A stretch of 64,000 bases of DNA from a virus. The stretch is from the IMG/VR virus record IMGVR_UViG_3300027987_000212, positions 121,328 through 185,327 of that record. The stretch is one strand, 5' to 3'. The notes under the pieces were generated by a model. That model saw nothing but the letters and a program-made list of their open reading frames with translations. It was not told where the DNA came from and searched no databases. A program made the position numbers and the translations under genes. Position 1 is the stretch's first letter, and each line of letters starts with the position of its first letter. Below, in pieces: positions 6,207-24,612 of this stretch.

Positions 6207-9200
6207 TCAGATGACCAGCGTCAAACGCAGATAGTTGCAGGGGTAGGGTACTGCCAAGGTAACATCGATGAGGACGCTATCCGGAGCATCCTCGTCCTGA
6301 ATGATGTTGTTCGGGGAGAAGCCGGTGAGTACTCCCGCCTCAATCAAGAACCCGCCCACGCCATCGACCACCGTACCCACCGAGTCCAGGAACCCCTGGG
6401 TGATGTTGAAACGCCCGACGTATGACTTGACGGCTCTCCGCAGAACCTTCGCCGTGAAGTCCACCACTTTGGTGATGGAATCCGTACGCGTCTCGATGCT
6501 GGTAAGGTTGGTCGTCAAAGCGTGGCGACTGACGAGCGGCGCCGACGGGGCATCTTGCACGATGATGTAGGCACCTCCGCCAGCCATGATGTTCATCTGA
6601 CGTTCGCTGAAGCGGGTGTTGCTGCCGATGACCCGCGTGAACCCCGCCATCGGGAAGTTGGTGAACGACTGTTGCGGCGGCTGCGCCCCAATCAGGCCGG
6701 CGATGCCCGCGCACATGTAGAACCCCGGCAGTAGCGTCTCGAGTCCGTTGATGGTTGCTGCACACTGGTCCGGCACCGTCATCCACAGACGTCGACTACC
6801 GTAGGCCAGCCCCGTAGCTGCTACCGTCGAGGCCACTCCATTGTTGTCAGGCACACCCGTCGGAGAGAGCAGGGCTGCTCCCCGAACCTTGACGGAGAAC
6901 GGCTCTTGAATGAGCGTACCGGTGAACGCCGTCGTCGAGTAGTACCCATCATCATTCTCCCCTGAGGCGAACGACGTACGGATGGTGACGTTCGCGCCCG
7001 ACAGTGCCGAGATGGAGTAACGCTTGGCATCGGAGCCGATGTCCAAGTACAGCCCCGCGCTCACCGGGATGGTGCCAACAGGGCTGATGCCCGCATTCAG
7101 CAGCAACGCCGCCATGTTGGCGATTTGCGTATTGAACACGGTCGTGCTGACCGAGTCTCCTGCAGCACCAGAAGCAACCAGCGTGTCCAACTTGGTAGTC
7201 GGGAATTCGAGGTTGACGATGGCCACACGCTCACCACGAGCTTCAGGCTCACTCATGGCTTCCGCATGCGCCTTCCACACTTGGTGCACCGTGGCATCAT
7301 GCGTCAAGGGCGTGGTAGCGTAGACTTCCTGGCCCTCGAGGTACCCTGCGGCGCGCGTGAACGCGTCAGCCGTGCCGTAAGGCGCATCGCTACTGACCTC
7401 ATCGACCCCGAGACCCGTAACTTGAATGCCGGGCCCATTCACCAGTGCGAAGAACAAGCCCAACGCAAGTGGGTTCGAGGAGTCGATTGGAGAAAGGGCC
7501 TCCTCGAGCTCAGTCGTGTTGTCGAAGATGAGTAGCCCGGGGTTCTTGGCGATGGCAGTCACATCCCGTCGAACCGCCGTGTACGACACGTACATCGGAG
7601 CAGAAACATCGACGCGCGCCCCCCGTGTATCGCGCAGCTGCTCTGCCTTGAGTAGGGCCGCCCCCGCAGCCGTGATGACCAAGTCTGGGTCCGGCCGCCC
7701 CGTAGTAGGCAGATTCTTGGCGATGATGAAGAAGTCCCGACCATAGCCCAAGTCCAGCGCAAGCTGCTTGTCGAGCTTGAGGTTGGTGACCACTCCTCCG
7801 GGAGCCACTGCGGAGACATTGCCGACGTACACGCCGTCAATCCAGACTTCGTCGCCAGCTACCGGCTTGTTCGGCACACCGCGGTAGAACCCCGCAATCA
7901 GCGTCGGGGAAACGTTGGGGTCCAAGTTCGCCAGAGCCGTACCGCCCAAAATCTGAATGACCGAGTCCGTGCCAGTGTCCGAGTGCGTCAAACGCAGTGT
8001 GCTGCTACCGGCATCCGACGCCGTAATGCGCCCTCCTGCCGCGGTCCCTACCACCGCGTTGATTTGCGACAAGATGTCGGCGAACGCAGCCACACCGGCG
8101 AACACGATGGTCTGCACTTGCTGGCCATCGGAGATGATGAGCGTCGCTCCGTCTGCGGGGTTGGTCGCGGGGTCCGTCGCAGTCACCACTGCCGCAGTCG
8201 GCGTCGCCGTGAAGTCCTCCCCCACGAACTTCAAAATGGGCGACAGGCTGTTGCCGTCGCCATCATCGATGACCGCGATACTGACACCTGCGTAGACTCC
8301 GACGGTCAAGCCTAGCACCGACAACGCAGTACCACTGACGATTTCGATAGATGCATCAGACCCAACGTCATCGCTAGTCAGCACCAGCAAACCACCACCT
8401 GTCTGGCTAGCCACCAAGCCAGTCGTCTGTGCATCGATTTGCGACAAGACTGCGGCCGGGTTAGCCGGCGTCGCAAAGGTGACCGTTTGGTTCGCGCCAC
8501 CCCCCACAGACAGCACGACGGTCAAGGTGTCGAGGTCGCCCGGCAGCGTAAGCGTCGCCAAGTCGACAGAGCCCGTGACCACGGCAGGGTCATCGACGGT
8601 GCCGTTGCGCAAGAACGCTGAGTCGCGCATCGCTTCTCTAATATCCGTGCCGCTACCGAGCGCGAAGAACACGCGGATGGAGTCCTGCTCGATGCCCAGC
8701 TCATCCAAGTTGCCTCGAGGGTCCGGGAATGCCGCTTGCGGAATCAGTACGTCGTACTGATTGTACGCGCCCAGCCCGGCATAGGTGTGGCCGATGCCGA
8801 TGCCGAAGGCCGCCAAGACTGCAGGCGAGGTGGTCGCAGTGATGTAAATGCTCTGGAAGTCACCGACGCCAACCGTGCGCAACTGCCACTGCGTAGTACC
8901 ATCTCCGACCAACTCGGCCAGACCTGCAGTCACGCCAGCGGCCAAGAACGCGGCCTGAATCTGTGACACCACCGTCGAGGGAGTAAGTCCTCCACCGAGA
9001 GTATCACTGAACGTGACCGACACTTCTGTGCCGTTGTTGAACTGTACCGCCAAGACGAGTCCGTCCAAACCACCGTACACTGGGGTTGGCGAACCGGAGG
9101 CAGCCTTTGCGACGAAGAACGCAGGTAGTTGAACCAGCGCGTCTGCATTCAGCAGCGACCCGCCAGCTCCGTCACTCACACTCAGAGGTACTACTTGCTT

Positions 9201-9308
9201 CGCGACTCCCACCACATTCGGCATGAGTGACGGTGTGATTACCGTCGGCGTGACAGTGCGAAAGACTTGAACGACCTGTACGCCAGGACGGGGAAGTTCA
9301 CCAGCCAT
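6207..9308 (-). CDS. tail sheath protein with inserted repeat domains
   Basis: 1033 aa; N-terminal RPGVQVVQ and C-terminal VLIDVTLAVPYPCNYLRLTL typical of contractile sheaths. Confidence 0.88.
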   Translation of the reverse strand: MAGELPRPGVQVVQVFRTVTPTVITPSLMPNVVGVAKQVVPLSVSDGAGGSLLNADALVQLPAFFVAKAASGSPTPVYGGLDGLVLAVQFNNGTEVSVTFSDTLGGGLTPSTVVSQIQAAFLAAGVTAGLAELVGDGTTQWQLRTVGVGDFQSIYITATTSPAVLAAFGIGIGHTYAGLGAYNQYDVLIPQAAFPDPRGNLDELGIEQDSIRVFFALGSGTDIREAMRDSAFLRNGTVDDPAVVTGSVDLATLTLPGDLDTLTVVLSVGGGANQTVTFATPANPAAVLSQIDAQTTGLVASQTGGGLLVLTSDDVGSDASIEIVSGTALSVLGLTVGVYAGVSIAVIDDGDGNSLSPILKFVGEDFTATPTAAVVTATDPATNPADGATLIISDGQQVQTIVFAGVAAFADILSQINAVVGTAAGGRITASDAGSSTLRLTHSDTGTDSVIQILGGTALANLDPNVSPTLIAGFYRGVPNKPVAGDEVWIDGVYVGNVSAVAPGGVVTNLKLDKQLALDLGYGRDFFIIAKNLPTTGRPDPDLVITAAGAALLKAEQLRDTRGARVDVSAPMYVSYTAVRRDVTAIAKNPGLLIFDNTTELEEALSPIDSSNPLALGLFFALVNGPGIQVTGLGVDEVSSDAPYGTADAFTRAAGYLEGQEVYATTPLTHDATVHQVWKAHAEAMSEPEARGERVAIVNLEFPTTKLDTLVASGAAGDSVSTTVFNTQIANMAALLLNAGISPVGTIPVSAGLYLDIGSDAKRYSISALSGANVTIRTSFASGENDDGYYSTTAFTGTLIQEPFSVKVRGAALLSPTGVPDNNGVASTVAATGLAYGSRRLWMTVPDQCAATINGLETLLPGFYMCAGIAGLIGAQPPQQSFTNFPMAGFTRVIGSNTRFSERQMNIMAGGGAYIIVQDAPSAPLVSRHALTTNLTSIETRTDSITKVVDFTAKVLRRAVKSYVGRFNITQGFLDSVGTVVDGVGGFLIEAGVLTGFSPNNIIQDEDAPDSVLIDVTLAVPYPCNYLRLTLVI

Positions 9309-9337: not shown

Positions 9338-10330
9338 CTACGTACCTGATTCTTTCACGCAGGACCGAACTAAGGGAAGCGCCCTACCGCCCATGCTCGG
9401 CCCGCGCAACCCAGCTCTATGGGGGTACGGGAAACGAACTGTGACTCGTTGCGCAGGATTCAACGGATGCGGCTGCTTGGGAAGAAACACCTCCCTAGTA
9501 CCGGCTGGGTCAGGTGTCGCCCCGTACACATCACTTGCTCCTGGCGCAAACGATGGAGGAAAGCAGTGCTCCTGATGTACTGGGTACTCGTGCGTTGCAG
9601 CCGCGGGCACACCCAGCGACTCAACGGTCTGAAGGTTGGTACTCAGCTGCGTGCGGATGTTCTGCACGATACGCTGACTCAGCGGTGTAGTGGCACTAGT
9701 CCGGTAGAACTGGTAAGGCACCCCCACGGAGGACACGTACCACTCATCACCCGAGTCTTGCTGAATGACGGCACTAGCACTCGAGGGCGGAGAGACTTGT
9801 ACGTTCTGCCCTATTTCGAAGAAGCCTCGCCGCAAGAATTCGTCTCGAAACAACCACACGTGCTCCGCAATCACCCAAGCCAAGTTGTGAGCAACAATGT
9901 CGCTACGCGCACTGACGTTAACCGTGAGCGACCCTGGTACCAGTGATGAGCGCACCTGCCGCCCTGTACGGGGGTCGTAGTGCAGTAAGTCGCCGAGTCC
10001 CATCGAGTAGAACTGCACCGCGCCCATCGTGAGATTGATGGCTGGTCGCGCGTTAACAGACGCCACATTGATGGGATTCTCGTCTCGAATCACTATCTCG
10101 GTAGTCGTCTCATCCTCATCCCAGTGGTAGCAGCCCGGCGGCGCTGTCTGAAAGAGGCCCTGCAAGAACGAGATGACGAGTACCCGTACATGCTGCAGCG
10201 GGGCGTACGCCATACTGCTTTCGGGGTAGCCGTCAGCTGGCGCTACCTCATGAACCCTGAATGGCACGTTGTATCCTCCGCTGCTCTTCCTGCTTCCACA
10301 AAGAATACGCCAAACCAGAGGCCGTGCCAA
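9338..10330 (-). CDS. putative tail completion/terminator protein
   Basis: 330 aa between neck genes and sheath; call is positional. Confidence 0.55.
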   Translation of the reverse strand: MARPLVWRILCGSRKSSGGYNVPFRVHEVAPADGYPESSMAYAPLQHVRVLVISFLQGLFQTAPPGCYHWDEDETTTEIVIRDENPINVASVNARPAINLTMGAVQFYSMGLGDLLHYDPRTGRQVRSSLVPGSLTVNVSARSDIVAHNLAWVIAEHVWLFRDEFLRRGFFEIGQNVQVSPPSSASAVIQQDSGDEWYVSSVGVPYQFYRTSATTPLSQRIVQNIRTQLSTNLQTVESLGVPAAATHEYPVHQEHCFPPSFAPGASDVYGATPDPAGTREVFLPKQPHPLNPAQRVTVRFPYPHRAGLRGPSMGGRALPLVRSCVKESGT

Positions 10331-10577
10331 TCACAGGGGCGAGTGTCCGAGCTACCCGTGCCCCTCGAGCAGCTCCTTGCCCGGGGCTGACCTTGGAAAT
10401 GAGGTGCCCCGCGCCGCGTCCGGCAGCAATGCCGGTACCAAATCCTAGCGTACCAAGTCCGATGTGCTTCAGCGCCGTCAAGTACCGACGTCCTTCGGCA
10501 TCCTCACGCTCTTCTGCCGCCTTTTTCGAGAAAGCAGTTGAACGTTCAAAAAACTGAGCAAACGTAGCATGCTTCAC
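10248..10577 (-). CDS. small KxA/glycine-zipper protein
   Basis: KHAT and KKAA motifs; IGLGTLGFGTGIAAG hydrophobic Gly-zipper. Confidence 0.6.
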   Translation of the reverse strand: MKHATFAQFFERSTAFSKKAAEEREDAEGRRYLTALKHIGLGTLGFGTGIAAGRGAGHLISKVSPGQGAARGARVARTLAPVIGTASGLAYSLWKQEEQRRIQRAIQGS

Positions 10578-11482
10578 GACTTCACCTCAGGATAGCTAGT
10601 ACTATACAACTGCAGTACCCCCGGGTACTCCTCATTGGTGAACGATACTAGTGAATGCGGGTTGCTGAAGTTACGCGCAGGAGACAACCACAAGTCCTCA
10701 AGCGCTGCGCCGGGGTCTAGCGGGATGCGATACTCCATGTCGCTATTGGGAATCTTGTGTATCTGAAATTCCTGATGTAGCGGCGCACGCAGTTGCTCAG
10801 TGGCAGAACCCTGCACAACTCGCCACCTGACATTCTCCGGTTCGATGATGAGGTCTCCCGGCTTCAGCGGAGGCCAGTACCCCATCCGCCCCGTCGTATC
10901 ACTTTGCTGGAGAGGCCCCACGCTAGTATGCTGCCGCGCCTTTGGACTTGGGTCTATGGATACCCAAGATTCGATAGGGGTGTAGTAGCCTCGAAAGAAC
11001 CCAGTATCGAAGCAGGACACGCACTGGGTCTTGGTACGTTTCTGCAGGGTCTTACTCCAGCAATCCTGGCATCTCGGACCAAACGTACGGACTGGCAGCA
11101 CCCAACACCGTCGACCGATGAACTCCCGAAAGAGCAAGTTCATCTGCTTACGTATCTCAGTCGCGATGAGGTCCGCATCAGCACCACGGGAAGCGCCCTC
11201 TGAATCCACAGAAAGGCTGTCCCGTTTACGCGTGACACGAACCTTGTAGTACAGCTCGCGCAAGTCATGGTTACCTGGGATAGCCCGGTCCACGAACATG
11301 TACTGGTCTTCTAGCGGTTGCGATACCTCGACGAAGGGCCCTTCTGGTCCTTCAGAGCGCAGTACACGAAACTGGTAGTCGAAAACTTCGCCCGTTGTGT
11401 CGTTCGTCTTCCACGACACCACGTTGAAGTCCACATCCAGTGAGCGTACTGCCAGCTCCGTGACACGCAGGGCCAGTGCCAT
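10574..11482 (-). CDS. putative head closure/neck protein
   Basis: FN3-like N-terminus (VSWK..DYQFRVLRSEGPEGPF) and CxxC pair CQDC/CVSC; neck position. Confidence 0.6.
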   Translation of the reverse strand: MALALRVTELAVRSLDVDFNVVSWKTNDTTGEVFDYQFRVLRSEGPEGPFVEVSQPLEDQYMFVDRAIPGNHDLRELYYKVRVTRKRDSLSVDSEGASRGADADLIATEIRKQMNLLFREFIGRRCWVLPVRTFGPRCQDCWSKTLQKRTKTQCVSCFDTGFFRGYYTPIESWVSIDPSPKARQHTSVGPLQQSDTTGRMGYWPPLKPGDLIIEPENVRWRVVQGSATEQLRAPLHQEFQIHKIPNSDMEYRIPLDPGAALEDLWLSPARNFSNPHSLVSFTNEEYPGVLQLYSTSYPEVKS

Positions 11483-11484
11483 GG

Positions 11485-12291
11485 TCAGCTCGTGGCACGC
11501 CCCGCGAGGAGCCCTGCACCGAGCCCAGCCGCCCCCGTAGCCACCGCAGGATGCTTGGCAGCGAACTGCAACGCTGAGCGGCCCGCAGTCTGCAGACCAG
11601 CACCCATACCTCCACGCTGGAAAGCGGCTGTGGTACGCCCAACTCCCTTCGCAAGAGTGCCTCCGGCGCCCTGCAGCCCTGTCTTTGCTGCACCCAACAG
11701 CCCCTTGGCTAGAGCCGCGGTAAAGGCCTCCTTGTGTTGAGCCTCCTTGACCGCCGCCGAAAAGCGCGCGCGGACCTCCGCTTCCTTGTTACCCGCCTGT
11801 GGTTGCTGCGGGGGCGGAGGGGCAACTGAGGGGTCGGGAACGGTGACAGGCTCTTCGTCATCCTCGCCGCCTTCCTCGCCTTCCTCGTCCTCGGGCGCGC
11901 CGCCCTCCTCCAACGCAGCCAGCTCGAGTTCGAGCAGTTTGCGGCGCACGCACAAGTCATTACGCTGAAGGTCGCGTTTCTCCCAGTCATCGTGCTGCCG
12001 AAGCTGCTGTTCCTGCTGGCGACGCGCATGCCGCATAGCGTTCTCTTCCATGGTCAGCGCCAGCTCCTCTCGAGCAAGTGCGTACGCCTGGTCGAACAGC
12101 TCCGTACCCTTGAACTTCTCGAGCCATTCCGTATCTTCCCCGCCACCGTAGGCCAGCTTCTCCTGGCCCGTTGCCAACTCGTACAGAATGTCCTGCGGTA
12201 GCTGCGCCAACCGCGCGTTGAGGGTGGTACGTGCCTCCGCCAGCTTACATTGGCCGTAGGACGCTTCCAAGAATTGGTCCAACATGGTCAC
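11485..12291 (-). CDS. KxA-motif virion protein with C-terminal glycine zipper
   Basis: KLAE, KLAY, KEAE, KEAQ, KEAF motifs; C-terminus AVATGAAGLGAGLLAG. Confidence 0.7.
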   Translation of the reverse strand: MTMLDQFLEASYGQCKLAEARTTLNARLAQLPQDILYELATGQEKLAYGGGEDTEWLEKFKGTELFDQAYALAREELALTMEENAMRHARRQQEQQLRQHDDWEKRDLQRNDLCVRRKLLELELAALEEGGAPEDEEGEEGGEDDEEPVTVPDPSVAPPPPQQPQAGNKEAEVRARFSAAVKEAQHKEAFTAALAKGLLGAAKTGLQGAGGTLAKGVGRTTAAFQRGGMGAGLQTAGRSALQFAAKHPAVATGAAGLGAGLLAGRATS

Positions 12292-14138
12292 CTCCGAAGG
12301 GCGTCAACGCCCTGTTTCAAACGCTTCACCGCAGCCATCAGCTCCGGCCCTGACGTAGCCATCGTAACGCCTCCAGCCAGTCCTCCCAAAATTGCAGCGC
12401 GACGGGGGTTGGTTTCCGCACGTTCAGCCGGACGTAGTGCCCTGTACGTTCGGGCTAGCTCCTTGGTCGTCTTTTCGTCCCCCGGCTCGCGCTTTTCTGC
12501 GAGGCGCCCCGCATGCTCCCGCAGTCCAGGGGCCTTCTTGCCAGCGAGGAGCGCCCCGCCCGCGCCGAGCAGGGCTCCACCGGCCGCCCACGGCGCCCGC
12601 GCCTTCACCGCTGCTGCCGCACTACCCTGCTTGGTCGCAAGTTCGCCGCCGGCCGCCGCCACCGGCCGCGCCGACCCCGGCCCGCTGCCCGCAACAGCCC
12701 CACCGGGAGTATTCGGACCCCCGACACCCTCCGTCGGCGCGCTCGCCCCGCCTTGCGCATCTGGCGCCTCTCCTGCTGCCCCTTCCATGTTGGGGTCACC
12801 CAAAGCAGCGTCGGGCATGGGCGACGCCAACTGCACCGGGTCCTGTGCAGCCAGCTGCAGCATGGCCTGCCGCATCTTCTCGGTACCGATACGCAAGTTG
12901 GCAATCTCCCGCGCTTGCTCGGTCGACGACATGTTAGCCTCGAGCGCTTGTTGGGTGCGCTCCTGCACTTCACCCCCCAACTGGTCTGCCTGCTGCTGCG
13001 TCTGCGACAACTGCGCCTGCGCATCTTGCATGGCCTGCGTGGCCTCACGCATCTTCTGCCGGTAGAACGCTGCCTCGTTCTGCCCTTGAATCTCTCGTGC
13101 CTGGCTCTCCTGCTCGAGGTACGCCGCAGGGTCCGAGCCGAACGCCACCTTCACCGAAGCATTCTTCCGAATATCCACCTCGGTGCCCAGCTCCTTACCC
13201 GCCTTGTTTCCCACTAGGTACCCGATACCCGCACCTATGGAGGGGCCCATCGGATGCTTCAAGTACTTGTTGCCGAGTAGGTACCCACCGGCAGCCCCAA
13301 GGGCACCCCCGGCAGTTGCCCCGAGTCGCTCACCGCGACGACCCTTCTCCCTATGTGCTTCTGCGGACAAGTTGGCGATAGCTCGTTCGCGACCCTTCTC
13401 TCTGGCCGCCGCATCTTCCGAGCCACGCTTCTCACGCAACTTGTCCGCAGTCAGACAAAAGGCGAACTTCTGCCGCAGCAAAGCGACTTTCTCCTCAGGT
13501 AGCCCAGTCGACTCTTCCGCAGCACCTTCCGGCACTTCCTCAGGTATCTCCTGAGGTATGGTGGGAACAAGCGAACCTTGCGACGCCCCCTGCGGCATCA
13601 TCTGCCACATCTCATCCAAGTGATGTTGGTCCTTGAGCATGTGCTCCTCGATACCAACACGCATTGGGTTGTCTTCGCCGACCATCTCCCGCAGCTCACG
13701 CTGGACAAGGATGCCCTCCTGCTCTGCTCGAGCCAGGATGTTGAAGATGGTGATGGGCTCACTTGCCGGCGGGGGTACCTCCACATCCTCGTAGTGCACC
13801 GGCCCTCCAAGGGCAGCCGCACGCTTCAAGTAGTACTCGAAGCCCTCACGTTCATCCTCAGCGTGTTCGTAGAACTCAGTCTTGGTGGCGCGCCAACCCT
13901 CGCCTTTCAAGCTTTGCGCGTATGTGTAGTACGCAAGCATGAGGCGAGCCTTGGCAGTAATCACCTGCTTCAACTTGTCGAGAAGCTCGACCGCCGAAAC
14001 AGCGAAGCGTCCCTCCATCACGCCTTCCTGGTCAGGTGGGTCTGTCCATGAGGCGGTCTTCATCTTGGTGAAGAAAGCCGCACCCGCCGCAAAAGGGATA
14101 GCCCGCGTGCCAACTAGCGCCCGTGCAAACTTGTCCAT
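12288..14138 (-). CDS. KxA-motif virion protein with ferritin-like domain and glycine zippers
   Basis: FYEHAEDERE..YLKRAAALGG and AEQEG..EEHMLKDQHHL ferritin-like pattern; several GxxxG segments. Confidence 0.75.
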   Translation of the reverse strand: MDKFARALVGTRAIPFAAGAAFFTKMKTASWTDPPDQEGVMEGRFAVSAVELLDKLKQVITAKARLMLAYYTYAQSLKGEGWRATKTEFYEHAEDEREGFEYYLKRAAALGGPVHYEDVEVPPPASEPITIFNILARAEQEGILVQRELREMVGEDNPMRVGIEEHMLKDQHHLDEMWQMMPQGASQGSLVPTIPQEIPEEVPEGAAEESTGLPEEKVALLRQKFAFCLTADKLREKRGSEDAAAREKGRERAIANLSAEAHREKGRRGERLGATAGGALGAAGGYLLGNKYLKHPMGPSIGAGIGYLVGNKAGKELGTEVDIRKNASVKVAFGSDPAAYLEQESQAREIQGQNEAAFYRQKMREATQAMQDAQAQLSQTQQQADQLGGEVQERTQQALEANMSSTEQAREIANLRIGTEKMRQAMLQLAAQDPVQLASPMPDAALGDPNMEGAAGEAPDAQGGASAPTEGVGGPNTPGGAVAGSGPGSARPVAAAGGELATKQGSAAAAVKARAPWAAGGALLGAGGALLAGKKAPGLREHAGRLAEKREPGDEKTTKELARTYRALRPAERAETNPRRAAILGGLAGGVTMATSGPELMAAVKRLKQGVDALRR

Positions 14139-16987: not shown

Positions 16988-18106
16988 TCAGTACGCGTTG
17001 ATTTGCGGGAACCGCAAGCCTTGGTCGAGACGGTTGTTCGGCGTACCCAGCTGGTCTTCCTCCACCGGGACGAAGTTGCTGATGAGCGTCTGGCTGCCCG
17101 CATTCGGGTTGGCGTTGCCGGAGTACAGCTCGCACTTCACGACTGCCGCCACGTTGGCGATGCCCATGGCGATGTCTTCCCACGCCTGCCACGAGATGAG
17201 GTTCGCGACCTTGTCGATGTAGAACTTCGTGTTGTTCAGGATGTAGAACTTCGCGAAAAACTCTGGCTTCGTGATGCAGTAGATGTTGCCGGGGCGCAAG
17301 ATGTCCGTCTTGATGGTACGCACGTAGGCACGTCCCAAGATGGTGTTGTACTTGTACCCGTCGACCGTCGTTTCCGACTGCACACGGTCACCGAAGTCTT
17401 CGACGGTCCATTGCAACATGTCGTCGAAGTCGGGGTCGGAGATGAGCGTCGTTTCGGCGCGCAACCGACGACCATCGAGGCGCTTGTATATGTTCACGAA
17501 GTCGGGGCGCTGAACAGGCCACACCACTGCGGTGTCCGCGGTCTGGCTTCGCGCAAGCTCCCCCTTGAAGATGGAGTACTCCACCGTCGCACCGATGGTC
17601 GAAGCCGCCAATGCTGCGGCGGTACCGCCGTTGGCTTCCGTCTGCAGTGCTTGGCAGGCGGACTCCATGTGAATGGTGAACTCACGGTCTTCGATTTCAC
17701 CGATGTCCTTCACCGAGTTCTCCTCGATGATTTTGGTGATGGGCATCTCGTACGCGAGCAACTCTTGCTCGGTCTTCTGGAACATCTCCGAAGAGATGGT
17801 GAAGAAGCCAACAGCGAAACGTCGACCGCTGATGACACGTGCGGAGGGCTGACCTCGGAACGAAATCGACATCGCACGAGATTGTGGCTCCATGTCCACA
17901 ATCTTGATGAGAGTGTCGTGGTTCACGCTGCGCTGGCAATCAGCGCGGGTGACCTGCTGCGGGGGAATCAACTTCCTGGTGTACGCGACTTCGCGTAGAC
18001 GGTCTCGCACATAGCTACCACCGTACTCTGCGACCTTCTCTTTTCCCTCCGCTGTTGCCACCTTCTGGGTGAAGAGGTCGTTCAACATCTGTGCCGGAAC
18101 GCTCAT
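16988..18106 (-). CDS. major capsid protein (probable)
   Basis: 372 aa; follows protease, scaffold-like and decoration genes; strong terminator downstream; N-terminal KVA motifs. Confidence 0.75.
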   Translation of the reverse strand: MSVPAQMLNDLFTQKVATAEGKEKVAEYGGSYVRDRLREVAYTRKLIPPQQVTRADCQRSVNHDTLIKIVDMEPQSRAMSISFRGQPSARVISGRRFAVGFFTISSEMFQKTEQELLAYEMPITKIIEENSVKDIGEIEDREFTIHMESACQALQTEANGGTAAALAASTIGATVEYSIFKGELARSQTADTAVVWPVQRPDFVNIYKRLDGRRLRAETTLISDPDFDDMLQWTVEDFGDRVQSETTVDGYKYNTILGRAYVRTIKTDILRPGNIYCITKPEFFAKFYILNNTKFYIDKVANLISWQAWEDIAMGIANVAAVVKCELYSGNANPNAGSQTLISNFVPVEEDQLGTPNNRLDQGLRFPQINAY

Positions 18107-19086: not shown

Positions 19087-20355
19087 TCACATGGAGCTTG
19101 CGGTGAATCCGGACGCTTGCTGCGGAGTGGCCGGGGCCATCCCCTGCCCGTCCTTCTCCTTGGCCTTCTTCATTTCCTTGGGGTCCGCGCAGGCGGCGGC
19201 CTTCACCAAGCTCGAGAGCAGCACGCGAGCTGCGGCGGTCTTGATGCCCCCCTGCTGCATACTGGCAATCTTCGCGCCCGCTTCGCCCGTACGGTCGAAG
19301 ACACGCTCGAGCGTCTTGTCCGTTGCAGCGGTCTGCGCGTTCTCGCTCAACAGCTGGTCGACATCCTTCTTCGGGTCTGCCTTGGCGTCCCGCTTGGTGA
19401 AATCGATGGCAGCCTGGTTCGACGCGACCATCTGCTCTTGCGAGCTGACGTCACTCGGAACGGCCGGCACGTTCTCCTCTGAGGCGGAAGCCCCTTCAGG
19501 AGGACCGTTGGGAACAGTGCCTGCCGAAATCTGTGCGGGGTTGATAGCATCCTCGGCGACCTTCTGCCGCTGACGAATCTCGGCGACCGTCACGCCAGCG
19601 CCGCCCGCTGCCGCTTGCTTACCCAACATCTGTTGCAGACGTACGGTGTTGTTGTGTAGCTGCGCAACCTTCTGGTTGGCGATGGGCTCGACCGGTTGCT
19701 CTGGGTGCTGCATCGCGGCATTGTCTGGGAGAGTACCCAGAGCAGCCGTCGAAGTCGTCTTTGGCTGCTGATTGGCGCCGGAGGCTTGCCCGCCCTCCCC
19801 TGTGTCGATGTTCGGCTCCGACGCCGTGGCAGCCGACGCCGGCAATGCGTTGGGCCCCGTAGACTCCTCGGCATCTTTCTCGAACTCGCCGGCAAGGTAC
19901 GCCAACGCGCTAGCCAACTTTGCTGCCTGCTCCGTCGGTATGTGGGTGGATGCGTTTGCAACCTTGGTCTGAGGCGCCACACCGAGCTGCATGTCTGCCT
20001 CGATACCGGCGGCCACACGTTGCATCGTGCCGGCCATCGCCGCTTTGACCAGGTCGTTCAGTTCTGGACGTCCAAGTGTACTCATGTTGACCTTCGCTGT
20101 TTTTGCGGGGAGAAGTGCTAGGCCTCCATTGGGGCCGGTCTTTGCGCTGGTGCCCGTATCGGGCGTCGGAGGACGCGCGGTGTTCACGCGCGAGTAGGTG
20201 GTGCGGGGCGACAGCCCCTTGGGCCCCGTCTGCCCCGGGGCTGTCTTGTTCTCGACAGCCGGCGGGGGCAGAGGGGTAATAGCGGCTTGACCTTTCAGGC
20301 CATCCGGAGCTGCGGAGCCTACAGCCTCCGCAAGTTTGTGCCCAGCCGCCACCAT
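19087..20355 (-). CDS. KxA-rich low-complexity head protein, scaffold-like
   Basis: 422 aa with many KxA motifs (KLAE, KTAP, KVAN, KLAS, KQAA, KVAE, KIAS, KTAA). Confidence 0.75.
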   Translation of the reverse strand: MVAAGHKLAEAVGSAAPDGLKGQAAITPLPPPAVENKTAPGQTGPKGLSPRTTYSRVNTARPPTPDTGTSAKTGPNGGLALLPAKTAKVNMSTLGRPELNDLVKAAMAGTMQRVAAGIEADMQLGVAPQTKVANASTHIPTEQAAKLASALAYLAGEFEKDAEESTGPNALPASAATASEPNIDTGEGGQASGANQQPKTTSTAALGTLPDNAAMQHPEQPVEPIANQKVAQLHNNTVRLQQMLGKQAAAGGAGVTVAEIRQRQKVAEDAINPAQISAGTVPNGPPEGASASEENVPAVPSDVSSQEQMVASNQAAIDFTKRDAKADPKKDVDQLLSENAQTAATDKTLERVFDRTGEAGAKIASMQQGGIKTAAARVLLSSLVKAAACADPKEMKKAKEKDGQGMAPATPQQASGFTASSM

Positions 20356-21104: not shown

Positions 21105-22742
21105 CTACTGCCAGTCCGTAACTTGAGCACCCCTACCGCATTCGTCCAAGAATGCACGATGAAAGTACGTCGCACTCAGCGGGGTGAACAGGGCTTCTAC
21201 TGGTACCGTGGCAAGCTTGATGCAGCTCGGCTCCTTGACTCTCGAAGAGTCCAGTAAGTCTGGGGCGTGAGCTACTAGTTCCATGAGGCCTGCGCGGTAC
21301 CCGTTGTACGCAGCCCCAATCTTACGCATCAGGTCACTGTGAAGGGAAGCACTTACCCCCTCCACTGGCTCAGGTGTCTTCCCTAGCACCAGCACACGCT
21401 GCTCGATGAAGGGCCCAAAGCCACTGCGTCCAGACAAGAAAGGCAGCAATAGCGGCAGTAATGTAGACAAGAAACCTTCAGGCCTGAGCGACATGTCCTG
21501 CACTTCATCGCACCGCGGGAACACCTGGTTACCCTCCGCAAACTCATCGGCAAGCCCACCAGCACCTGCATGCATGAGAAGCATGTGCTGAAACTCCTTG
21601 GGGCGCAGGACAATGCCCAGCGCGGTAAGGGTAGCCAGCGACTGCGGAAGAGGCAGCCCCGCCAAGTCCGCAAGCAAGTCTGGCGGTAAGTCCCGCTCTT
21701 GTCGAGTCAACAATGGCACCGCTTTGCCTGCCAGATTACTGGGCAAGTTGTCCTTGTCTATGGAACCCCGCTTGGACCCAGCCTGCTTCCCGAATTCTCC
21801 AGTAAGAATGCGCTCAAACGTACTGGGCGCAGAAGCAGTCTTCGTGCCCTCCACCGACGCTGTCTCCAAGGTCGACGTACGTAGTGGCCACGAGCCCTTA
21901 CCGCTGAAGATGAGTAGCATCTGCTTCGCCGTGCGGTCAGCACCGATAAAGACGTAGCTGATATCGAAGAACCTCGGGTAGTCGTTGAAGACGAACACTT
22001 TCCTGCCATCAGGCAGGATGACGTTCATCATCTTCAGGGCATGCTCACAGTAGTCTTTGCGCGTGATGGACACGCCACGAATAGGCTTCCGCTTGTGTAC
22101 CTCGAGTACAGCCATGCCCGGGTGGGCATGCCGCTTCGGGTCAAACGTCGCCTGCGCGGCACGGTACCGGTCCCAGTCTAAGCAGATGGAGCAAGTATCG
22201 AACGGAACCTTCGCGCCCATACTAACGTCGGGGAATCCGCCAGCCTGTATCTTGTCCCAAACCCCCGTACCCCCAAACTGCTGACACTTGTCGTAGTCAA
22301 GACGCGTAACCAGCTCCGCCCGCCGCATATGCGGGTTCCACGTTGCCAGTTCCACTTCCCCAAAAGCCTGGGCTGAGTCCTTGTTCTTGTGATGCGCGTA
22401 GGGGTGCGCTCCGTAGAACGTGGGAAACCCGTACGGCCACGACTCAGCAAGTACCTTGTCGTGAGCAGGTACGTTGGTCCACTCACTGGGGCGATGGACG
22501 AGGGCTGCCTCGGGAAACGCGTCGCCATTGACGTTCGACCCGAAGTACTCACTCGCCCCGAGTGCATTGACCAGGACGTACTGCGACTCCTTGCGTGGCC
22601 GCAATCCCTGAATGTACGTCGCCACCTCAGGCATGAGGCCGACAGAAGCCGTCTTCTCGAAGTACTTGTCGGCATGCCCAAAAAGCGGAACGACGACCTT
22701 ACCGGCCTCACCCTCGTGGCGATAGTAGCTGTACTTGAGCAT
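21105..22742 (-). CDS. prohead maturation protease (probable)
   Basis: SNVNGDAFPE, TFYGAHPYAHHKNKD (His), VSMG (Ser) then VPFDTCSIC; pattern resembles capsid maturation proteases of large myophages. Confidence 0.7.
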   Translation of the reverse strand: MLKYSYYRHEGEAGKVVVPLFGHADKYFEKTASVGLMPEVATYIQGLRPRKESQYVLVNALGASEYFGSNVNGDAFPEAALVHRPSEWTNVPAHDKVLAESWPYGFPTFYGAHPYAHHKNKDSAQAFGEVELATWNPHMRRAELVTRLDYDKCQQFGGTGVWDKIQAGGFPDVSMGAKVPFDTCSICLDWDRYRAAQATFDPKRHAHPGMAVLEVHKRKPIRGVSITRKDYCEHALKMMNVILPDGRKVFVFNDYPRFFDISYVFIGADRTAKQMLLIFSGKGSWPLRTSTLETASVEGTKTASAPSTFERILTGEFGKQAGSKRGSIDKDNLPSNLAGKAVPLLTRQERDLPPDLLADLAGLPLPQSLATLTALGIVLRPKEFQHMLLMHAGAGGLADEFAEGNQVFPRCDEVQDMSLRPEGFLSTLLPLLLPFLSGRSGFGPFIEQRVLVLGKTPEPVEGVSASLHSDLMRKIGAAYNGYRAGLMELVAHAPDLLDSSRVKEPSCIKLATVPVEALFTPLSATYFHRAFLDECGRGAQVTDWQ

Positions 22743-22745
22743 GTA

Positions 22746-23303
22746 CTACGCCGTCTGCTGGGCAGCTCGAGCGCGGCGCTGCTCCTCCTCGAACCCTTGT
22801 TGCCGTCGAGCTTCTTGCATCTGACTGTTGAGGCCGTACTGCACACCCGCACCCATCGCACGTTGGATGTCAGGAACCAGCGACATGTTGCCCCGAGTCA
22901 GCCCCGCGTGCTCCTTAGCCAAGTTCACCAAGGTGCCCCCGACATTGCTTGGGTTCTCTCCCATCATCCGCATGAAGTGCGCTGCGACCAGCGGCTGCGC
23001 TGCGAATTCAGGTGCCATGCTTCTCAGCGCAGTAAAGCGTCGGTTGAACGTTCGAGGGTCCTCTTGTTGGTACTCTCGAAGCCCTGGGTCCGCCTCCATC
23101 ATGCTCGAAAAGTCTCGCCGCTTGGTCAGTGCTTGGTAGGCCTTCCCCGTGGCTGCAACGAGGCCAGTCGCTGCAATGCTGCCCCCGACGGACACCGCAA
23201 CACCGGGTATGGCTGCCTTGGCTGCGGGCCAGAACGAGGCTGTCTTTGGGGAGGCCAGTTTGACCTCCCCGTACGTCTCCAAGTACTCATCGAGTGGGTT
23301 CAT
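22746..23303 (-). CDS. KxA-motif virion protein
   Basis: KLASPKTAS at the N-terminus followed by a hydrophobic Gly/Ala helix. Confidence 0.7.
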   Translation of the reverse strand: MNPLDEYLETYGEVKLASPKTASFWPAAKAAIPGVAVSVGGSIAATGLVAATGKAYQALTKRRDFSSMMEADPGLREYQQEDPRTFNRRFTALRSMAPEFAAQPLVAAHFMRMMGENPSNVGGTLVNLAKEHAGLTRGNMSLVPDIQRAMGAGVQYGLNSQMQEARRQQGFEEEQRRARAAQQTA

Positions 23304-24568
23304 ACGGGAAAGCCCTGCTGGTAGCTGTACTGCCGAATCATGTTCTGGTGGGTGTAAGGCACCCGGCTCAGGACGAAGTTCTTCGCCCCTTGTACCATCG
23401 GATTGTACTTGGCGCGCTGGTAGGCGTCCTCGAGCGCAATACCGCCAGCGATGTGCGGCGCGTACTTCACCGCCCCGCCCAAGACGTTCCCCGCACGCTC
23501 CGCGGCTTGGACGCTACCTCCCGCCGCCTCCACCATTTCACGCGTGAACGCATTGACGGGGCGCGACGCTTTCGCGGTAGCTTGCGTCACACCCCGAACC
23601 GCTTTTGGGATTTTGCCCAAGATTCCGCCAATCTCTGACGCGGAGCTTGCCTCCTTCAAGAAGGTCTCGACTTGGCCCAGAGCCGTCTCGACGTCCTCCA
23701 TGACCTGCCGCGTTGCCGCCAACTTGTTCAGCGTCTCGCACCACGTCGAGAACGTCCGCACCAACGGGTGCGCCGCGTTGACGGGCGTCGCCGCAACCTT
23801 CACCGCGAGGGACTCGACGAGCTCCTCTCGAGAGGGGAACACCCCGGAAGTCACCAAGGCGGGAGTCAACATCGTGAAAGCAGCCTTGATGAACTCCGGC
23901 TGCGCCCCAGCGCCCGCCCCCCAGGCTGCGACGATGTGCGACAACGGGACACCCGCCAAGGCTGCCTGCTTCGTTCGCTCGAGTAGCTCCCCACCCAGCA
24001 TCTGCAGCTGCGTTTCCCCCAAGCTCATCTCGGCCAAGGCCTCCTCGTACAAACTGGCAAGCTTGCTCCGAGCCTCGAGCGCGGGGGCCAGTGGTTCTGC
24101 GAAAGGCATTGGGGAGGGGGTAGCCTGGAAGAGTTCGGCCAGCTTGACCTCGTCCAGACCCATCCGCGCCTCATTGGCCGCCGCAGCCTTCGCGAAGTCG
24201 GGCGGGGGAGCCTGGTAGTCCCCGCTGCCGGTGTCGAACACAGACCCACCCCCACCGTCGTTCAAATCCTGAAGGATGGCCGCGGGGTCTGCCGGGCCGC
24301 CGACGAACTCCACGAACTTGTGCGACGCGCCCACCTTGCTGAACTCAGTCTGGTAGGCAGCATGGTTCGTGAACTCGACTACACGCCGTACTTGTTCCGG
24401 AGACAAGCCAGCAGTCTTCACCGTGCTTACTACAGCCTCAGTCAACGTACTACACTGCCCACGATGGTAGAGTGCCGCAGCATACTTCCCCAGCGTCTCC
24501 AGTTCTGCGCCTGTCTTGTTGCGCGCGGCCTTCTGCTGCACCAGCATTGACGTGGGAAGGTCATTCAT
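23300..24568 (-). CDS. KxA-rich virion protein
   Basis: About 12 of 20 lysines in KxA context; start placed at MNDLP. Confidence 0.75.
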   Translation of the reverse strand: MNDLPTSMLVQQKAARNKTGAELETLGKYAAALYHRGQCSTLTEAVVSTVKTAGLSPEQVRRVVEFTNHAAYQTEFSKVGASHKFVEFVGGPADPAAILQDLNDGGGGSVFDTGSGDYQAPPPDFAKAAAANEARMGLDEVKLAELFQATPSPMPFAEPLAPALEARSKLASLYEEALAEMSLGETQLQMLGGELLERTKQAALAGVPLSHIVAAWGAGAGAQPEFIKAAFTMLTPALVTSGVFPSREELVESLAVKVAATPVNAAHPLVRTFSTWCETLNKLAATRQVMEDVETALGQVETFLKEASSASEIGGILGKIPKAVRGVTQATAKASRPVNAFTREMVEAAGGSVQAAERAGNVLGGAVKYAPHIAGGIALEDAYQRAKYNPMVQGAKNFVLSRVPYTHQNMIRQYSYQQGFPV

Positions 24569-24612
24569 AGCAAGTAGCGTACACCCACCCAATCTCCAAG
24601 GGAAGTAATCGA

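What the first reader, a model, noticed from the sequence alone, without database searches (positions are those of the whole stretch)
13596..13991. Ferritin-like four-helix domain embedded in a KxA capsid-region protein
Seen: FYEHAEDEREG..YLKRAAALGGP and AEQEG..EEHMLKDQHHL match the two halves of the ferritin/Dps/bacterioferritin fold, though some ligands are altered (first Glu is Lys; first ExxH is ExxG). The domain is bracketed by KTAS and KVA, so processing could release it. Known: HK97-fold encapsulins load ferritin-like cargo. Inference: a phage capsid packaging a metal-binding or DNA-protecting cargo, for example against Fenton damage.
Basis: partly seen in the sequence, partly recalled or inferred. 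Interest (0 to 1): 0.75.

Follow-up and report, generated by a model that had tools for sequence, protein, structure and literature searches.

The report
Half-disabled ferritin cassette in phage structural protein
A large uncultivated phage carries a genuine ferritin-type domain as an optional, tag-flanked insert in a protein encoded among its head and neck genes. This copy has lost half of its iron-oxidising site, so it is probably packaged cargo but probably not an active iron enzyme.

Summary
Residues about 40-182 of the 616-aa ORF (window 12288-14138, minus strand) form a real ferritin four-helix bundle: Pfam PF00210 scores above its cut-off, the AlphaFold model has pLDDT 87, and the best fold matches are DpsL, mini-bacterioferritin and Dps.

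Three of the six di-iron ligands are changed (Glu to K63, His to G99, Glu to D170). This is not decay. About 180 relatives split into a canonical E-E-H-E-E-H clade and a coherent K-E-(A/G/D)-E-D-H clade that includes this copy. The change resembles vertebrate L-ferritin, where a lysine salt bridge replaces the iron site.

The domain is an optional cassette. It sits between a conserved 27-aa leader ending in K-x-A and a second conserved K-x-A. About half of close relatives have the same leader and backbone (glycine zippers, coiled coil) without ferritin.

The gene keeps its place between the capsid and sheath genes. A candidate T4 gp21-like protease lies upstream.

Packaging into the head and K-x-A cleavage are plausible but only inferred. 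An encapsulin-like active iron cargo is unlikely for this copy.

The scan has noted ferritin-type proteins tagged for phage heads on other genomes before.

I rate this a new variant of a known kind, of moderate interest.

The parts
12288..14138 (-). Whole ORF (616 aa, P0001): modular 'slot' protein made of leader, ferritin cassette, acidic linker and constant backbone
   Evidence: ORF list and translation. It is tightly coupled to both neighbouring genes: TAA-C-ATG upstream, and a GTG/ATG start overlapping or just after the TGA downstream. Sixty homologues were found by word search, and 279 cluster representatives by exhaustive phmmer.
14052..14138 (-). Leader, residues 1-29 (two short helices; I14-P15 ... 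F22-F23 ... K27-T-A29)
   Evidence: It is conserved across the family (I14, P15, F22, K27 and A29 at 90% or more). The same leader heads the ferritin-less orthologues P0304 and P0305 and nine IMG/VR loci.
14052..14060 (-). First K-x-A motif (K27-T28-A29, followed by S30-W31): candidate processing site
   Evidence: K in 156 of 183 sequences and A in 144 of 183. Cleavage itself is inferred, not shown.
13599..13994 (-). Ferritin-like four-helix bundle, residues 49-180
   Evidence: PF00210 above its cut-off, AF2 pLDDT above 95 in the core, Foldseek matches to DpsL, mini-Bfr and Dps.
13950..13952 (-). K63, at the position of the helix-A Glu ligand (Bfr E18)
   Evidence: Alignment to PA4880. The position is K in 81 and E in 81 of 183 family members, and it covaries with positions 99, 170, 146 and 103.
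13842..13853 (-). E96-R-E-G99: the first ExxH motif with the His replaced by Gly
   Evidence: Alignments to 2vzb and frog M ferritin. E96 is conserved (161 of 183). Position 99 is H in the canonical clade and A, G or D in this clade.
13722..13724 (-). E139, the helix-C Glu ligand (invariant E139-Q140-E141)
   Evidence: Invariant in 58 of 58 and present in 178 of 183.
13620..13631 (-). D170-Q-H-H173: the second ExxH motif with Glu replaced by Asp
   Evidence: Alignment to PA4880. The position is D in 81 and E in 84 of 183. H173 is present in 172 of 183.
13491..13586 (-). Acidic Pro/Glu-rich linker, residues 185-216
   Evidence: pI 4.05. It is variable in length and sequence in the family alignment and has low pLDDT.
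13482..13490 (-). Second K-x-A motif (K217-V-A219): candidate processing site that closes the cassette
   Evidence: A219 in 54 of 58 and K217 in 38 of 58, within a non-conserved linker. Equivalent sites are listed for nearly every homologue.
13158..13421 (-). Basic segment plus glycine-zipper two-helix module, residues 240-327
   Evidence: Weak PF13441 Gly-zipper_YMGG hit (E 0.0027). phrog_22557 hit. Atlas structural neighbours are Gly-zipper 2TM proteins. pI 10. Conserved in ferritin-less orthologues.
13143..13172 (-). I-R-K-N-A-S-V-K-V-A: two further conserved K-x-A motifs after the glycine zipper
   Evidence: K325 in 41 of 58, A327 in 42 of 58, K330 in 51 of 58.
12843..13121 (-). Gln-rich helical (coiled-coil-like) segment, residues 340-432
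   Evidence: Family consensus. Aligned with the ferritin-less orthologues.
12291..12623 (-). C-terminal basic module with two more Gly/Ala-rich hydrophobic segments, residues 506-616
   Evidence: Hydropathy peaks at residues 515 and 580, pI 11.2. Conserved in P0305.
21105..22742 (-). Candidate head-maturation protease (545 aa, P0184), carrying FEKTAS at residues 28-33
   Evidence: No Pfam or PHROG hit. The AF2 model's best match by two methods is T4 gp21 (5jbl): Foldseek E 0.24, and VIA-align Z 5.9, rmsd 3.5 A, 135 residues aligned, with the next row at Z 4.0. H117, H118 and S174 are invariant. This support is weak to moderate.
16988..18106 (-). Major capsid protein (372 aa), with KVA at residues 15-17 and 24-26
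   Evidence: phrog_2522 major head protein, E 3.4e-10. 27.7% identical to the Arash major capsid protein. N-terminal K-x-A is also present in L003, Arash and D69.
11485..12291 (-). Next gene (268 aa): N-terminal QCKLAE tag and a Gly/Ala-rich C-terminus
   Evidence: Translation and motif listing. The L003 orthologue has QDKTAS at residues 12-17.
10248..10577 (-). Small (109 aa) glycine-zipper protein with FSKKAAE at residues 16-22
   Evidence: The L003 orthologue has MMKVAAD at residues 8-14.
6207..9308 (-). Tail sheath (1033 aa), which marks the end of the neck region
   Evidence: phrog_279 tail sheath, E 3.1e-8.

Best explanation
The ORF is a modular late protein of a large clade of roughly 175-200 kb uncultivated myoviruses. 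These are distant kin of Salmonella phage Arash.

It has three parts:
- a conserved leader of about 27 residues that ends in K-x-A;
- an optional cassette closed by a second K-x-A;
- a constant backbone: a basic segment with a glycine zipper, a Gln-rich helical segment, and a C-terminal glycine-zipper pair.

Here the cassette is a bacterioferritin/DpsL-type four-helix bundle. Half of the family keeps the complete set of six di-iron ligands. This copy belongs to a coherent subclade in which one metal position has lost both of its own ligands (Glu to K63, His to G99) and a bridging Glu is shortened to D170. The other position (E96, E139, D170, H173) and the ferritin two-fold dimer surface are kept.

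I infer the following. The protein is loaded into the assembling head. The phage's gp21-like protease cuts it at the K-x-A sites. An acidic, dimeric or higher-order ferritin-fold module stays in the head or leaves with the DNA.

In this subclade the module most likely no longer oxidises iron. Like vertebrate L-ferritin, a lysine probably fills the lost metal site. At most it binds a single metal ion or has a structural or iron-sequestering role.

Shown: the fold, the ligand pattern, the two subclades, the cassette nature, the synteny and the motif conservation. Inferred: packaging, cleavage, oligomeric state and metal chemistry.
For: Fold: PF00210 above its cut-off, AF2 pLDDT 87, and Foldseek matches to DpsL, mini-Bfr, Dps and Bfr.

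Ligand map K63/E96/G99/E139/D170/H173.

Two subclades:
- 79 sequences carry EEHEEH and about 77 carry K-E-(A/G/D)-E-D-H. These covary with W146Q and L103Y.
- The two groups cluster on a tree built without those columns: 11 label changes against 73.6 for shuffled labels.
- The derived residues are themselves conserved (K63 52/58, D170 53/58, H173 56/58, E139 58/58). This argues for selection rather than decay.

Cassette nature:
- P0304 and P0305 share the leader and backbone but have no ferritin.
- Twenty IMG/VR loci of MCP-close relatives carry the slot protein. Eleven have the cassette and nine lack it. Among those with it are canonical, K-type and one fully ligand-less version.
- Other members carry DUF5661 or LPP modules.

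Structural-operon position is conserved: MCP, four to five small genes, the slot protein, then the sheath.

K-x-A evidence:
- The motifs at module borders are conserved.
- They also sit near the N-termini of the MCP, the protease candidate and two neighbouring glycine-zipper proteins. The interleaved neck and tail proteins lack them.
- K-x-A is enriched in scaffold-like head proteins (p 1e-5 and 2e-4).
- The motif recurs in Arash and D69 head proteins.

Protease candidate: the best structural match is T4 gp21.

Homodimer model of residues 30-190:
- ipSAE 0.44, against 0.01 for the best of three controls.
- That mark was reached by 20 of 30 proteins solved as pairs of one chain and by 1 of 23 solved as single chains.
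- The runs agree in at least 95% of contacts, and the partner's pLDDT is at least 84.
- The interface uses helices A and B and the B-C loop, as in solved ferritins, so the pass may come from likeness to solved structures.

Precedents:
- In L-ferritin a Lys62-Glu107 salt bridge replaces the H-chain iron site (PMC11396501).
- The Arash virion holds 116 proteins, including RNA polymerase subunits (PMC10585845).
- Arash glycine-zipper proteins gp213 and gp224 are annotated as structural.
- Phage G ferritin-like gp346 was detected in particles (PMC12484599).
Against: - There is no direct evidence that this protein is in virions or is cleaved. No cultured phage carries it.
- The protease assignment rests on a modest structural match (Z 5.9, Foldseek E 0.24) with no sequence-family hit.
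- K-x-A is not enriched in this protein overall: 8 sites against 5.5 expected. One conserved K-R-A (105-107) lies inside helix B, so the motif alone does not define a cut.
- The gene lies after the neck-type genes, not within the scaffold and protease block.
- The remaining four carboxylate and His residues could still support catalysis of an unknown kind.
- The lysine salt bridge is inferred from alignment. I had no model coordinates to measure it.
- The leader's resemblance to the protease N-terminus is not significant (hhalign P 0.18).
Confidence: 0.5

Rival explanations
1. Structural module only. The ferritin fold is used as a compact, dimerising spacer or oligomerisation domain of a virion protein, and metal binding is irrelevant. 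The conserved polar residues serve stability (a buried salt-bridge network), not chemistry.
For: - Close relatives do without the cassette altogether: 9 of 20 loci.
- One relative keeps the fold with all six ligand positions changed (L028, SASLLN).
- The dimer interface is predicted with confidence.
- The L-ferritin precedent shows a Lys salt bridge that stabilises an inactive bundle.
Against: - Half of the family keeps a perfect six-ligand di-iron set (79 of 183), so the ancestral and still widespread role involves metal.
- In the K-clade the four residues of the second metal position stay almost invariant. That is more than stability alone would need.
Confidence: 0.22
2. One reading: an active, encapsulin-like iron-oxidising or mineralising cargo inside the capsid that protects the packaged DNA from Fenton chemistry.
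For: - The fold is nearest to cage-forming DpsL, mini-Bfr and Dps.
- Canonical-clade relatives have all six ligands in the same slot.
- The module is acidic, like ferritin interiors.
- Database phage proteins labelled prohead protease also contain ferritin-like domains.
Against: - This copy lacks two ligands of one iron position, and a lysine sits there. [quoted passage not shown]
- There is no heme-binding Met and no DpsL Cys pair.
- Cage formation is untested.
- The cassette is dispensable in close relatives.
Confidence: 0.1
3. Not a virion component. It is a late-expressed protein, membrane-anchored through its glycine zippers, that acts in the infected cell. It might manage iron or oxidative stress at the envelope, or take part in lysis or exclusion. 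It merely sits inside the structural operon.
For: - Glycine-zipper two-helix modules are typical of membrane-associated proteins.
- Free-standing phage Dps genes are usually read as host-directed auxiliary genes (PMC8008677; PMC6669764).
- The slot is a lineage-specific insertion that is absent from the Arash and D69 neck regions.
Against: - The gene is translationally coupled to flanking structural-operon genes and holds a fixed position across the clade.
- Conserved K-x-A sites at module borders match the pattern of the head proteins.
- The leader is amphipathic with charged residues and is not a signal peptide.
- Glycine-zipper proteins are annotated as virion structural proteins in Arash.
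Confidence: 0.13
4. An external neck, collar or whisker protein that displays the ferritin domain on the outside of the particle. It could bind environmental iron or iron-loaded receptors.
For: The gene lies among neck-type genes just before the sheath. It has a long Gln-rich helical segment that could be fibrous.
Against: - The conserved leader and internal K-x-A sites suggest proteolytic maturation, which in T4 is known for components of the head interior (established knowledge, not tested here).
- The hydrophobic glycine zippers and basic modules do not resemble fibre proteins.
- No trimeric fibre fold was detected.
Confidence: 0.05

Closest known systems
DPS-like proteins / 'thioferritins' (Bacteroides fragilis DpsL 2vzb, Sulfolobus solfataricus 2clb, Pseudomonas PA4880 8w1d/8w1e) and mini-bacterioferritin (9qq4, PMC13168243)
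   Same: - Best sequence and structure matches.
- Four-helix bundle with an intrasubunit, bacterioferritin-type metal site.
- 'EHA' and 'H-x-D' motifs shared with PA4880 and 2vzb.
- The predicted two-fold dimer uses helices A and B and the B-C loop.
   Different: - Only three of the six ligands are unchanged (K63, G99 and D170 replace the others).
- No Cys pair and no heme-binding Met.
- The domain is not a free-standing protein of about 170 aa. It is an N-terminal cassette of a 430-1150 aa phage protein with a leader.
- Single-sequence phmmer against 1.84 billion representatives found 279 proteins at E <= 0.001. Nearly all of the 150 listed are long fused forms.
Vertebrate L-chain ferritin
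   Same: A ferroxidase site is disabled by a Lys that takes the place of a metal ligand, together with a His-to-Gly change, while the fold and assembly surfaces are kept (PMC11396501; H65G is recalled from the literature, not checked here).
   Different: - The resemblance is convergent, not homologous at subfamily level.
- Here the Lys replaces the helix-A Glu, not the helix-B Glu.
- No catalytic partner chain is encoded: the genome has a single copy.
T4 internal proteins (IPI-III, Alt) with a capsid-targeting sequence removed by the gp21 prohead protease
   Same: - A short N-terminal leader ends in a conserved short motif.
- A candidate gp21-fold protease is present.
- The motif is shared with the capsid and scaffold-like proteins.
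   Different: - The motif is K-x-A rather than L/I-x-E.
- The leader is about 27 aa.
- The protein has several internal sites and a large constant backbone.
- Nothing has been shown experimentally.
Encapsulin ferritin-like cargo (EncFtn / FLP with a C-terminal targeting peptide)
   Same: The idea of a ferritin-superfamily protein enclosed in an HK97-fold shell.
   Different: - The shell is a true phage capsid with terminase, a protease candidate and a tail.
- The tag is N-terminal, with no C-terminal loading peptide.
- The fold is a full four-helix monomer, not the two-helix EncFtn.
Other phage ferritin-like proteins
   Same: All are ferritin-fold proteins encoded by tailed phages, and several are linked to heads. 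Examples:
- free-standing Dps of Lactobacillus phages and 'Gratiaviridae' (PMC6669764, PMC8008677);
- Bacillus phage G gp346, found in particles (PMC12484599);
- uncultured-phage 'prohead protease' proteins with Dps-like domains (BFVD).
   Different: - No detectable sequence similarity (tblastn against 50,697 phage records found nothing).
- They have Dps-type rather than Bfr/DpsL-type sites.
- Their architectures differ.

Membership tests
Ferritin-like superfamily (Pfam PF00210) | Match to the family HMM above the curated gathering score | tested here: met
   34.8 bits against a cut-off of 24.5, E 1.9e-8, residues 54-173. 56 of 58 homologues also match.
Ferritin-like superfamily (Pfam PF00210) | Four-helix bundle with a long crossover loop between helices B and C | tested here: met
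   AF2 helices at 49-74, 82-109, 128-153 and 159-180, with a loop at 110-127. TM by target 0.87-0.88 to 2qqy and 9qq4.
Bacterioferritin/DpsL-type di-iron ferroxidase | Six intrasubunit ligands: E (helix A), ExxH (B), E (C), ExxH (D) | tested here: not met
   The window copy reads K63, E96..G99, E139, D170..H173. The sister clade of the same family does meet the feature (EEHEEH in 79 of 183).
Bacterioferritin/DpsL-type di-iron ferroxidase | Heme-ligating Met next to the first ExxH Glu (Bfr Met52) | tested here: not met
   Position 97 is Q, R, L or H in the family and never predominantly Met. The residue numbering of Bfr is recalled from memory.
DpsL 'thioferritin' | Conserved cysteine pair near the metal site | tested here: not met
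   Residues 30-190 contain no cysteine.
Cage-forming ferritins (12- or 24-mer) | Assembly into a closed shell through two-fold, three-fold or four-fold contacts | tested here: inconclusive
   Only the two-fold dimer was modelled. The score was 0.44 against 0.01 for the best control. That mark was reached by 20 of 30 solved homodimers and 1 of 23 monomers. The pass may come from likeness to solved ferritins. Higher-order assembly was not tested.
Dps (mini-ferritin) | Intersubunit ferroxidase site (His, His, Asp from one subunit; Asp, Glu from the partner) | not tested
   Dps structures appear among the fold matches, but I made no ligand-level alignment. By recalled motifs, the Dps 'AER' Glu would fall on K105.
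Encapsulin cargo systems | C-terminal cargo-loading peptide and a stand-alone HK97-fold shell gene without virion genes | tested here: not met
   The surrounding genes are a full virion module: terminase, capsid, sheath. The conserved tag is N-terminal.
Prohead-protease-processed head-internal proteins (T4 CTS type) | N-terminal leader ending in the phage's own conserved protease motif, shared with capsid and scaffold proteins | tested here: met
   K27-x-A29 is conserved (156 and 144 of 183). The same motif occurs near the N-termini of the MCP, the protease candidate and scaffold-like proteins. This is sequence evidence only.
Prohead-protease-processed head-internal proteins (T4 CTS type) | A head-maturation protease encoded in the head module | tested here: inconclusive
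   The best fold match of the 545-aa protein is T4 gp21 by two aligners, but it is weak: Z 5.9, rmsd 3.5 A, 135 residues aligned, and Foldseek E 0.24. There is no HMM hit.
Prohead-protease-processed head-internal proteins (T4 CTS type) | Demonstrated cleavage and presence in the mature head | not testable with these tools
   This needs virion proteomics. No cultured member carries the gene.

The most novel reading that the evidence does not exclude
This phage clade uses one conserved, leader-tagged 'chassis' protein to load exchangeable cassettes into the head, or to inject them. The cassettes include ferritin, DUF5661, LPP-like modules, or none. Within it, a viral ferritin has been converted into a non-catalytic form with a lysine filling the lost metal site. 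That would be a viral counterpart of L-ferritin. It would still assemble and act as an iron or metal sink, or as an internal body next to the packed DNA.
Probability: 0.25. Interest if true: 0.75.

Novelty: new variant of a known kind. Interest (0 to 1): 0.55.

Why it matters
- It would add a natural, widespread example of a phage head carrying ferritin-superfamily cargo. There are more than 200 sequence clusters, in a clade with over 1000 detected relatives. That would link real capsids to the encapsulin cargo principle.
- Active, half-disabled, fully disabled and absent versions sit in the same slot of closely related phages. This is a ready-made natural experiment on what the domain does for the virus.
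- The coupled Glu-to-Lys and His-to-Gly switch parallels the H-to-L ferritin transition. It is a compact model for how di-iron sites are retired without losing the fold.
- The leader plus K-x-A architecture could serve as a tool for loading proteins into phage heads.

Tried and rejected
- tblastn of the whole protein and of the ferritin part against 50,697 phage records found no match.
- A profile search of the Arash genome gave only a compositional glycine-zipper hit to gp213 (E 0.09; rechecked). The cultured relatives therefore give no orthologue and no proteomic test.
- The idea that the slot-protein leader and the protease N-terminus share a targeting peptide (pattern [IV]P[LF]...F..K.A, found in only these two N-termini) was not supported by hhalign (P 0.18). 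I treat it as a post-hoc pattern.
- The C-terminal 400 residues gave no informative family or fold beyond the glycine zippers.
- The neighbouring 268-aa protein is not a paralogue of the backbone.
- A word-based search with the backbone alone found few relatives because the region is low in complexity. The IMG/VR census through the capsid gene replaced it.
- DNA binding of the Dps type was rejected on charge: pI 4.5.
- A signal-peptide reading of the leader was rejected because charged residues interrupt it.
- I could not measure the K63 salt bridge because model coordinates are not exposed to scripts.
Full report
**What is there**

The finding's coordinates (13596-13991) are residues 50-181 of a 616-aa ORF on the minus strand (12288-14138). 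The window is the last 64 kb of a complete 185,327-bp IMG/VR virus record with direct terminal repeats.

Around the ORF lies a virion module, all on the minus strand:
- large terminase, 25311-27131;
- a 545-aa protease candidate, 21105-22742;
- K-x-A-rich scaffold-like proteins;
- the major capsid protein, 16988-18106 (phrog_2522);
- five small genes;
- the ORF in question;
- four more genes;
- a 1033-aa tail sheath, 6207-9308 (phrog_279).

The phage is therefore a myovirus. Its nearest cultured kin are very distant: Salmonella phage Arash (capsid protein 27.7% identical) and Vibrio phages D69, D148 and D181.

Pfam PF00210 matches residues 54-173 at 34.8 bits against a cut-off of 24.5. An AlphaFold2 model of residues 1-200, built on 58 homologues, has pLDDT 87, with above 95 through the bundle. 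It shows four long helices plus two short leader helices.

Foldseek returns only ferritin-superfamily structures. These are B. fragilis DpsL 2vzb (E 7e-5), 2qqy and mini-bacterioferritin 9qq4 (TM by target 0.87-0.88, rmsd 1.9 A), and then PA4880, Dps and Bfr.

Alignments to PA4880, 2vzb and frog M ferritin give this ligand map:

| Canonical ligand | Residue in this copy |
|---|---|
| helix-A Glu | K63 |
| first ExxH | E96-x-x-G99 |
| helix-C Glu | E139 |
| second ExxH | D170-x-x-H173 |

**A phage-specific fused family with two states of the metal site**

An exhaustive phmmer search with residues 30-190 against 1.84 billion cluster representatives found 279 proteins at E <= 0.001 and 217 at E <= 1e-10. 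Nearly all of the 150 listed are 400-1150 aa long, with the domain starting at about residue 25-60.

In 183 sequences the six ligand positions fall into two classes:
- E-E-H-E-E-H, the full bacterioferritin-type set, in 79 sequences;
- K-E-(A/G/D)-E-D-H in about 77, including this copy (KEGEDH).

The classes covary with W146Q and L103Y. On a tree built without these columns they cluster strongly: 11 changes against 73.6 for shuffled labels.

Within the derived class the new set is itself conserved: K63 52/58, E96 55/58, E139 58/58, D170 53/58, H173 56/58. This is a fixed alternative state, not random decay.

One metal position has lost both of its private ligands and gained a lysine. The other keeps all four. 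Vertebrate L-ferritin is a precedent: there a Lys62-Glu107 salt bridge replaces the iron site of the H chain and stabilises an inactive subunit (PMC11396501).

The domain has no cysteine and no Met at the Bfr heme position. It is therefore neither a thioferritin nor a heme-binding Bfr.

**The domain is an optional cassette**

The family consensus has four parts:
- a leader (M-x-F...I-P-L-x-E-A-A-x-F-F...K-x-A);
- the ferritin domain;
- a variable acidic Pro/Glu linker that ends in a second conserved K-x-A (A219 in 54/58);
- a constant backbone.

The backbone is a basic stretch with a glycine-zipper two-helix module ending in I-(R/H)-K-N-A, then a Gln-rich helical segment, a Pro/Gly/Ala-rich spacer, and a basic C-terminus with two more Gly/Ala-rich hydrophobic segments.

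In two relatives that I reached through the protease gene, the protein in the same slot has the same leader and backbone but no ferritin domain (P0304 and P0305).

A census through the capsid gene gave 37 IMG/VR loci with 58-75% capsid identity. Of the 23 loci with at least 5 kb downstream, 20 carry the slot protein. Of these, 11 have the cassette and 9 lack it.

| State of the cassette | Loci |
|---|---|
| Canonical EEHEEH | L023, L030/31, L034/35, L039, L043 |
| K-type | L010, L037/38 |
| All six ligand positions changed | L028 |
| No cassette | L012, L014, L015, L016, L017, L020, L022, L029, L033 |

Other family members carry DUF5661 or LPP-like modules. The ferritin cassette is therefore accessory. 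It is frequently gained or lost, and its catalytic site has been given up more than once.

**Is it a head protein that gets cut?**

This part is inference. The arguments for it:
- The position between capsid and sheath genes is fixed across the clade, and the gene is tightly coupled to both neighbours.
- K-x-A motifs are conserved exactly at module borders.
- The same motif sits near the N-termini of the capsid protein, the protease candidate and two neighbouring glycine-zipper proteins (268 aa and 109 aa). The interleaved neck and tail proteins lack it.
- It is statistically enriched in the scaffold-like head proteins (p 1e-5 and 2e-4).
- It recurs in the head proteins of Arash and D69.
- The 545-aa protein has invariant His-His and Ser residues. 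Its model matches T4 gp21 best by two aligners, though only modestly: Foldseek E 0.24, and VIA-align Z 5.9, rmsd 3.5 A, 135 residues, with the next row at Z 4.0.
- Arash particles contain 116 proteins, including RNA polymerase subunits (PMC10585845). Arash glycine-zipper proteins are annotated as structural.
- Phage G particles contain a ferritin-like protein (PMC12484599).

The arguments against it:
- No orthologue exists in any cultured phage.
- This protein is not enriched in K-x-A overall.
- One conserved K-R-A lies inside helix B.
- The gene sits outside the scaffold block.

**What the released module would be like**

Residues 30-219 have pI 4.5 and a net charge of about -20. The glycine-zipper modules are basic, with pI 10-11. 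Dps-style DNA binding by the ferritin module is therefore unlikely.

A two-copy model of residues 30-190 scored ipSAE 0.44, against 0.01 for the best of three controls. That mark was reached by 20 of 30 proteins solved as homodimers and by 1 of 23 solved as monomers. The runs agree in at least 95% of contacts, and the partner's pLDDT is at least 84. The interface uses helices A and B and the B-C loop, the classical ferritin two-fold. Because ferritin dimers are solved, this pass may reflect likeness to known structures rather than binding by this copy. Cage formation was not tested.

**Verdict**

The protein is best described as a leader-tagged modular structural-operon protein with a swappable ferritin cassette. 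This copy belongs to an L-ferritin-like, half-disabled subclade. It is probably packaged and processed. It is probably not an active ferroxidase, although it may still bind one metal.

The main rivals are:
- a purely structural role for the fold;
- an active encapsulin-like cargo;
- a non-virion membrane protein;
- an external neck protein.

**Relation to the literature and to earlier scan notes**

In the library I searched I found no description of this family or architecture. Free-standing phage Dps genes, and ferritin-like domains in uncultured-phage proteins labelled prohead protease, are on record.

Earlier notes of this scan, which are unchecked AI notes, report ferritin-type proteins tagged for phage heads on other genomes, and a K-x-A code in this genome. 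I used these as leads and tested the parts that bear on this gene.

Noticed in passing
L008:18204-19625 and L009:18275-19852; also IMG/VR loci L012, L014-L017, L020, L022, L029, L033: Ferritin-less orthologues of the slot protein (364-598 aa) have the same leader and backbone. Some carry short extra K-x-A-delimited segments instead of the cassette.
   Followed up: yes
L028:12891-15008: A close relative keeps the ferritin-fold cassette, but all six metal-ligand positions are changed (S-A-S-L-L-N). This version is fully disabled yet retained.
   Followed up: partly
P0308 (644 aa, contig of 186,737 bp); P0085 in L007:5876-9172; the 915-aa protein on the contig of P0278: Other cassettes occupy the same chassis: a small 'KYPIHDERHAKTAL...' module (PF18905 DUF5661 in P0085 and P0028) and an LPP leucine-zipper module (PF04728).
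   Followed up: no
window 21105-22742 (-): The 545-aa protein has no Pfam or PHROG hit, and over 1000 homologues are on record. Its N-terminal 270 residues model closest to T4 gp21 protease. Residues 335-540 form a confident all-helical domain of unknown fold. The two parts are separated by a disordered stretch that carries TKTAS.
   Followed up: partly
L003:575-3334; proteins P0240 and P0259: Some orthologues of the protease candidate are interrupted by an intein (PF05203 Hom_end_hint, PF14528).
   Followed up: no
window 10574-11482 (-): A 302-aa protein between the slot genes and the sheath carries a four-cysteine zinc-ribbon-like motif (CQDCW...CVSCFD). It has orthologues in L003 and probably in D69, and no family hit.
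   Followed up: no
window 11485-12291 (-) and 10248-10577 (-): Two more proteins in the neck region combine an N-terminal K-x-A tag with Gly/Ala-rich hydrophobic C-terminal segments. They may belong to the same processed set as the ferritin protein.
   Followed up: partly
window 19087-20355 (-), 23300-24592 (-), and genome position about 109.5 kb before the window start (907 aa): These proteins show the strongest K-x-A enrichment in the genome: 14 of 28, 12 of 20 and 16 of 36 lysines (p 2e-4 to 5e-6).
   Followed up: partly
L003:18541-19140: An HNH endonuclease gene is inserted between the sheath and the next tail gene in a relative. It is absent from the window.
   Followed up: no
L002 (Arash) gp213 and gp224: Virion 'structural proteins' of the cultured relative Arash contain paired glycine-zipper segments like those of the slot-protein backbone. 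The similarity is compositional only.
   Followed up: partly
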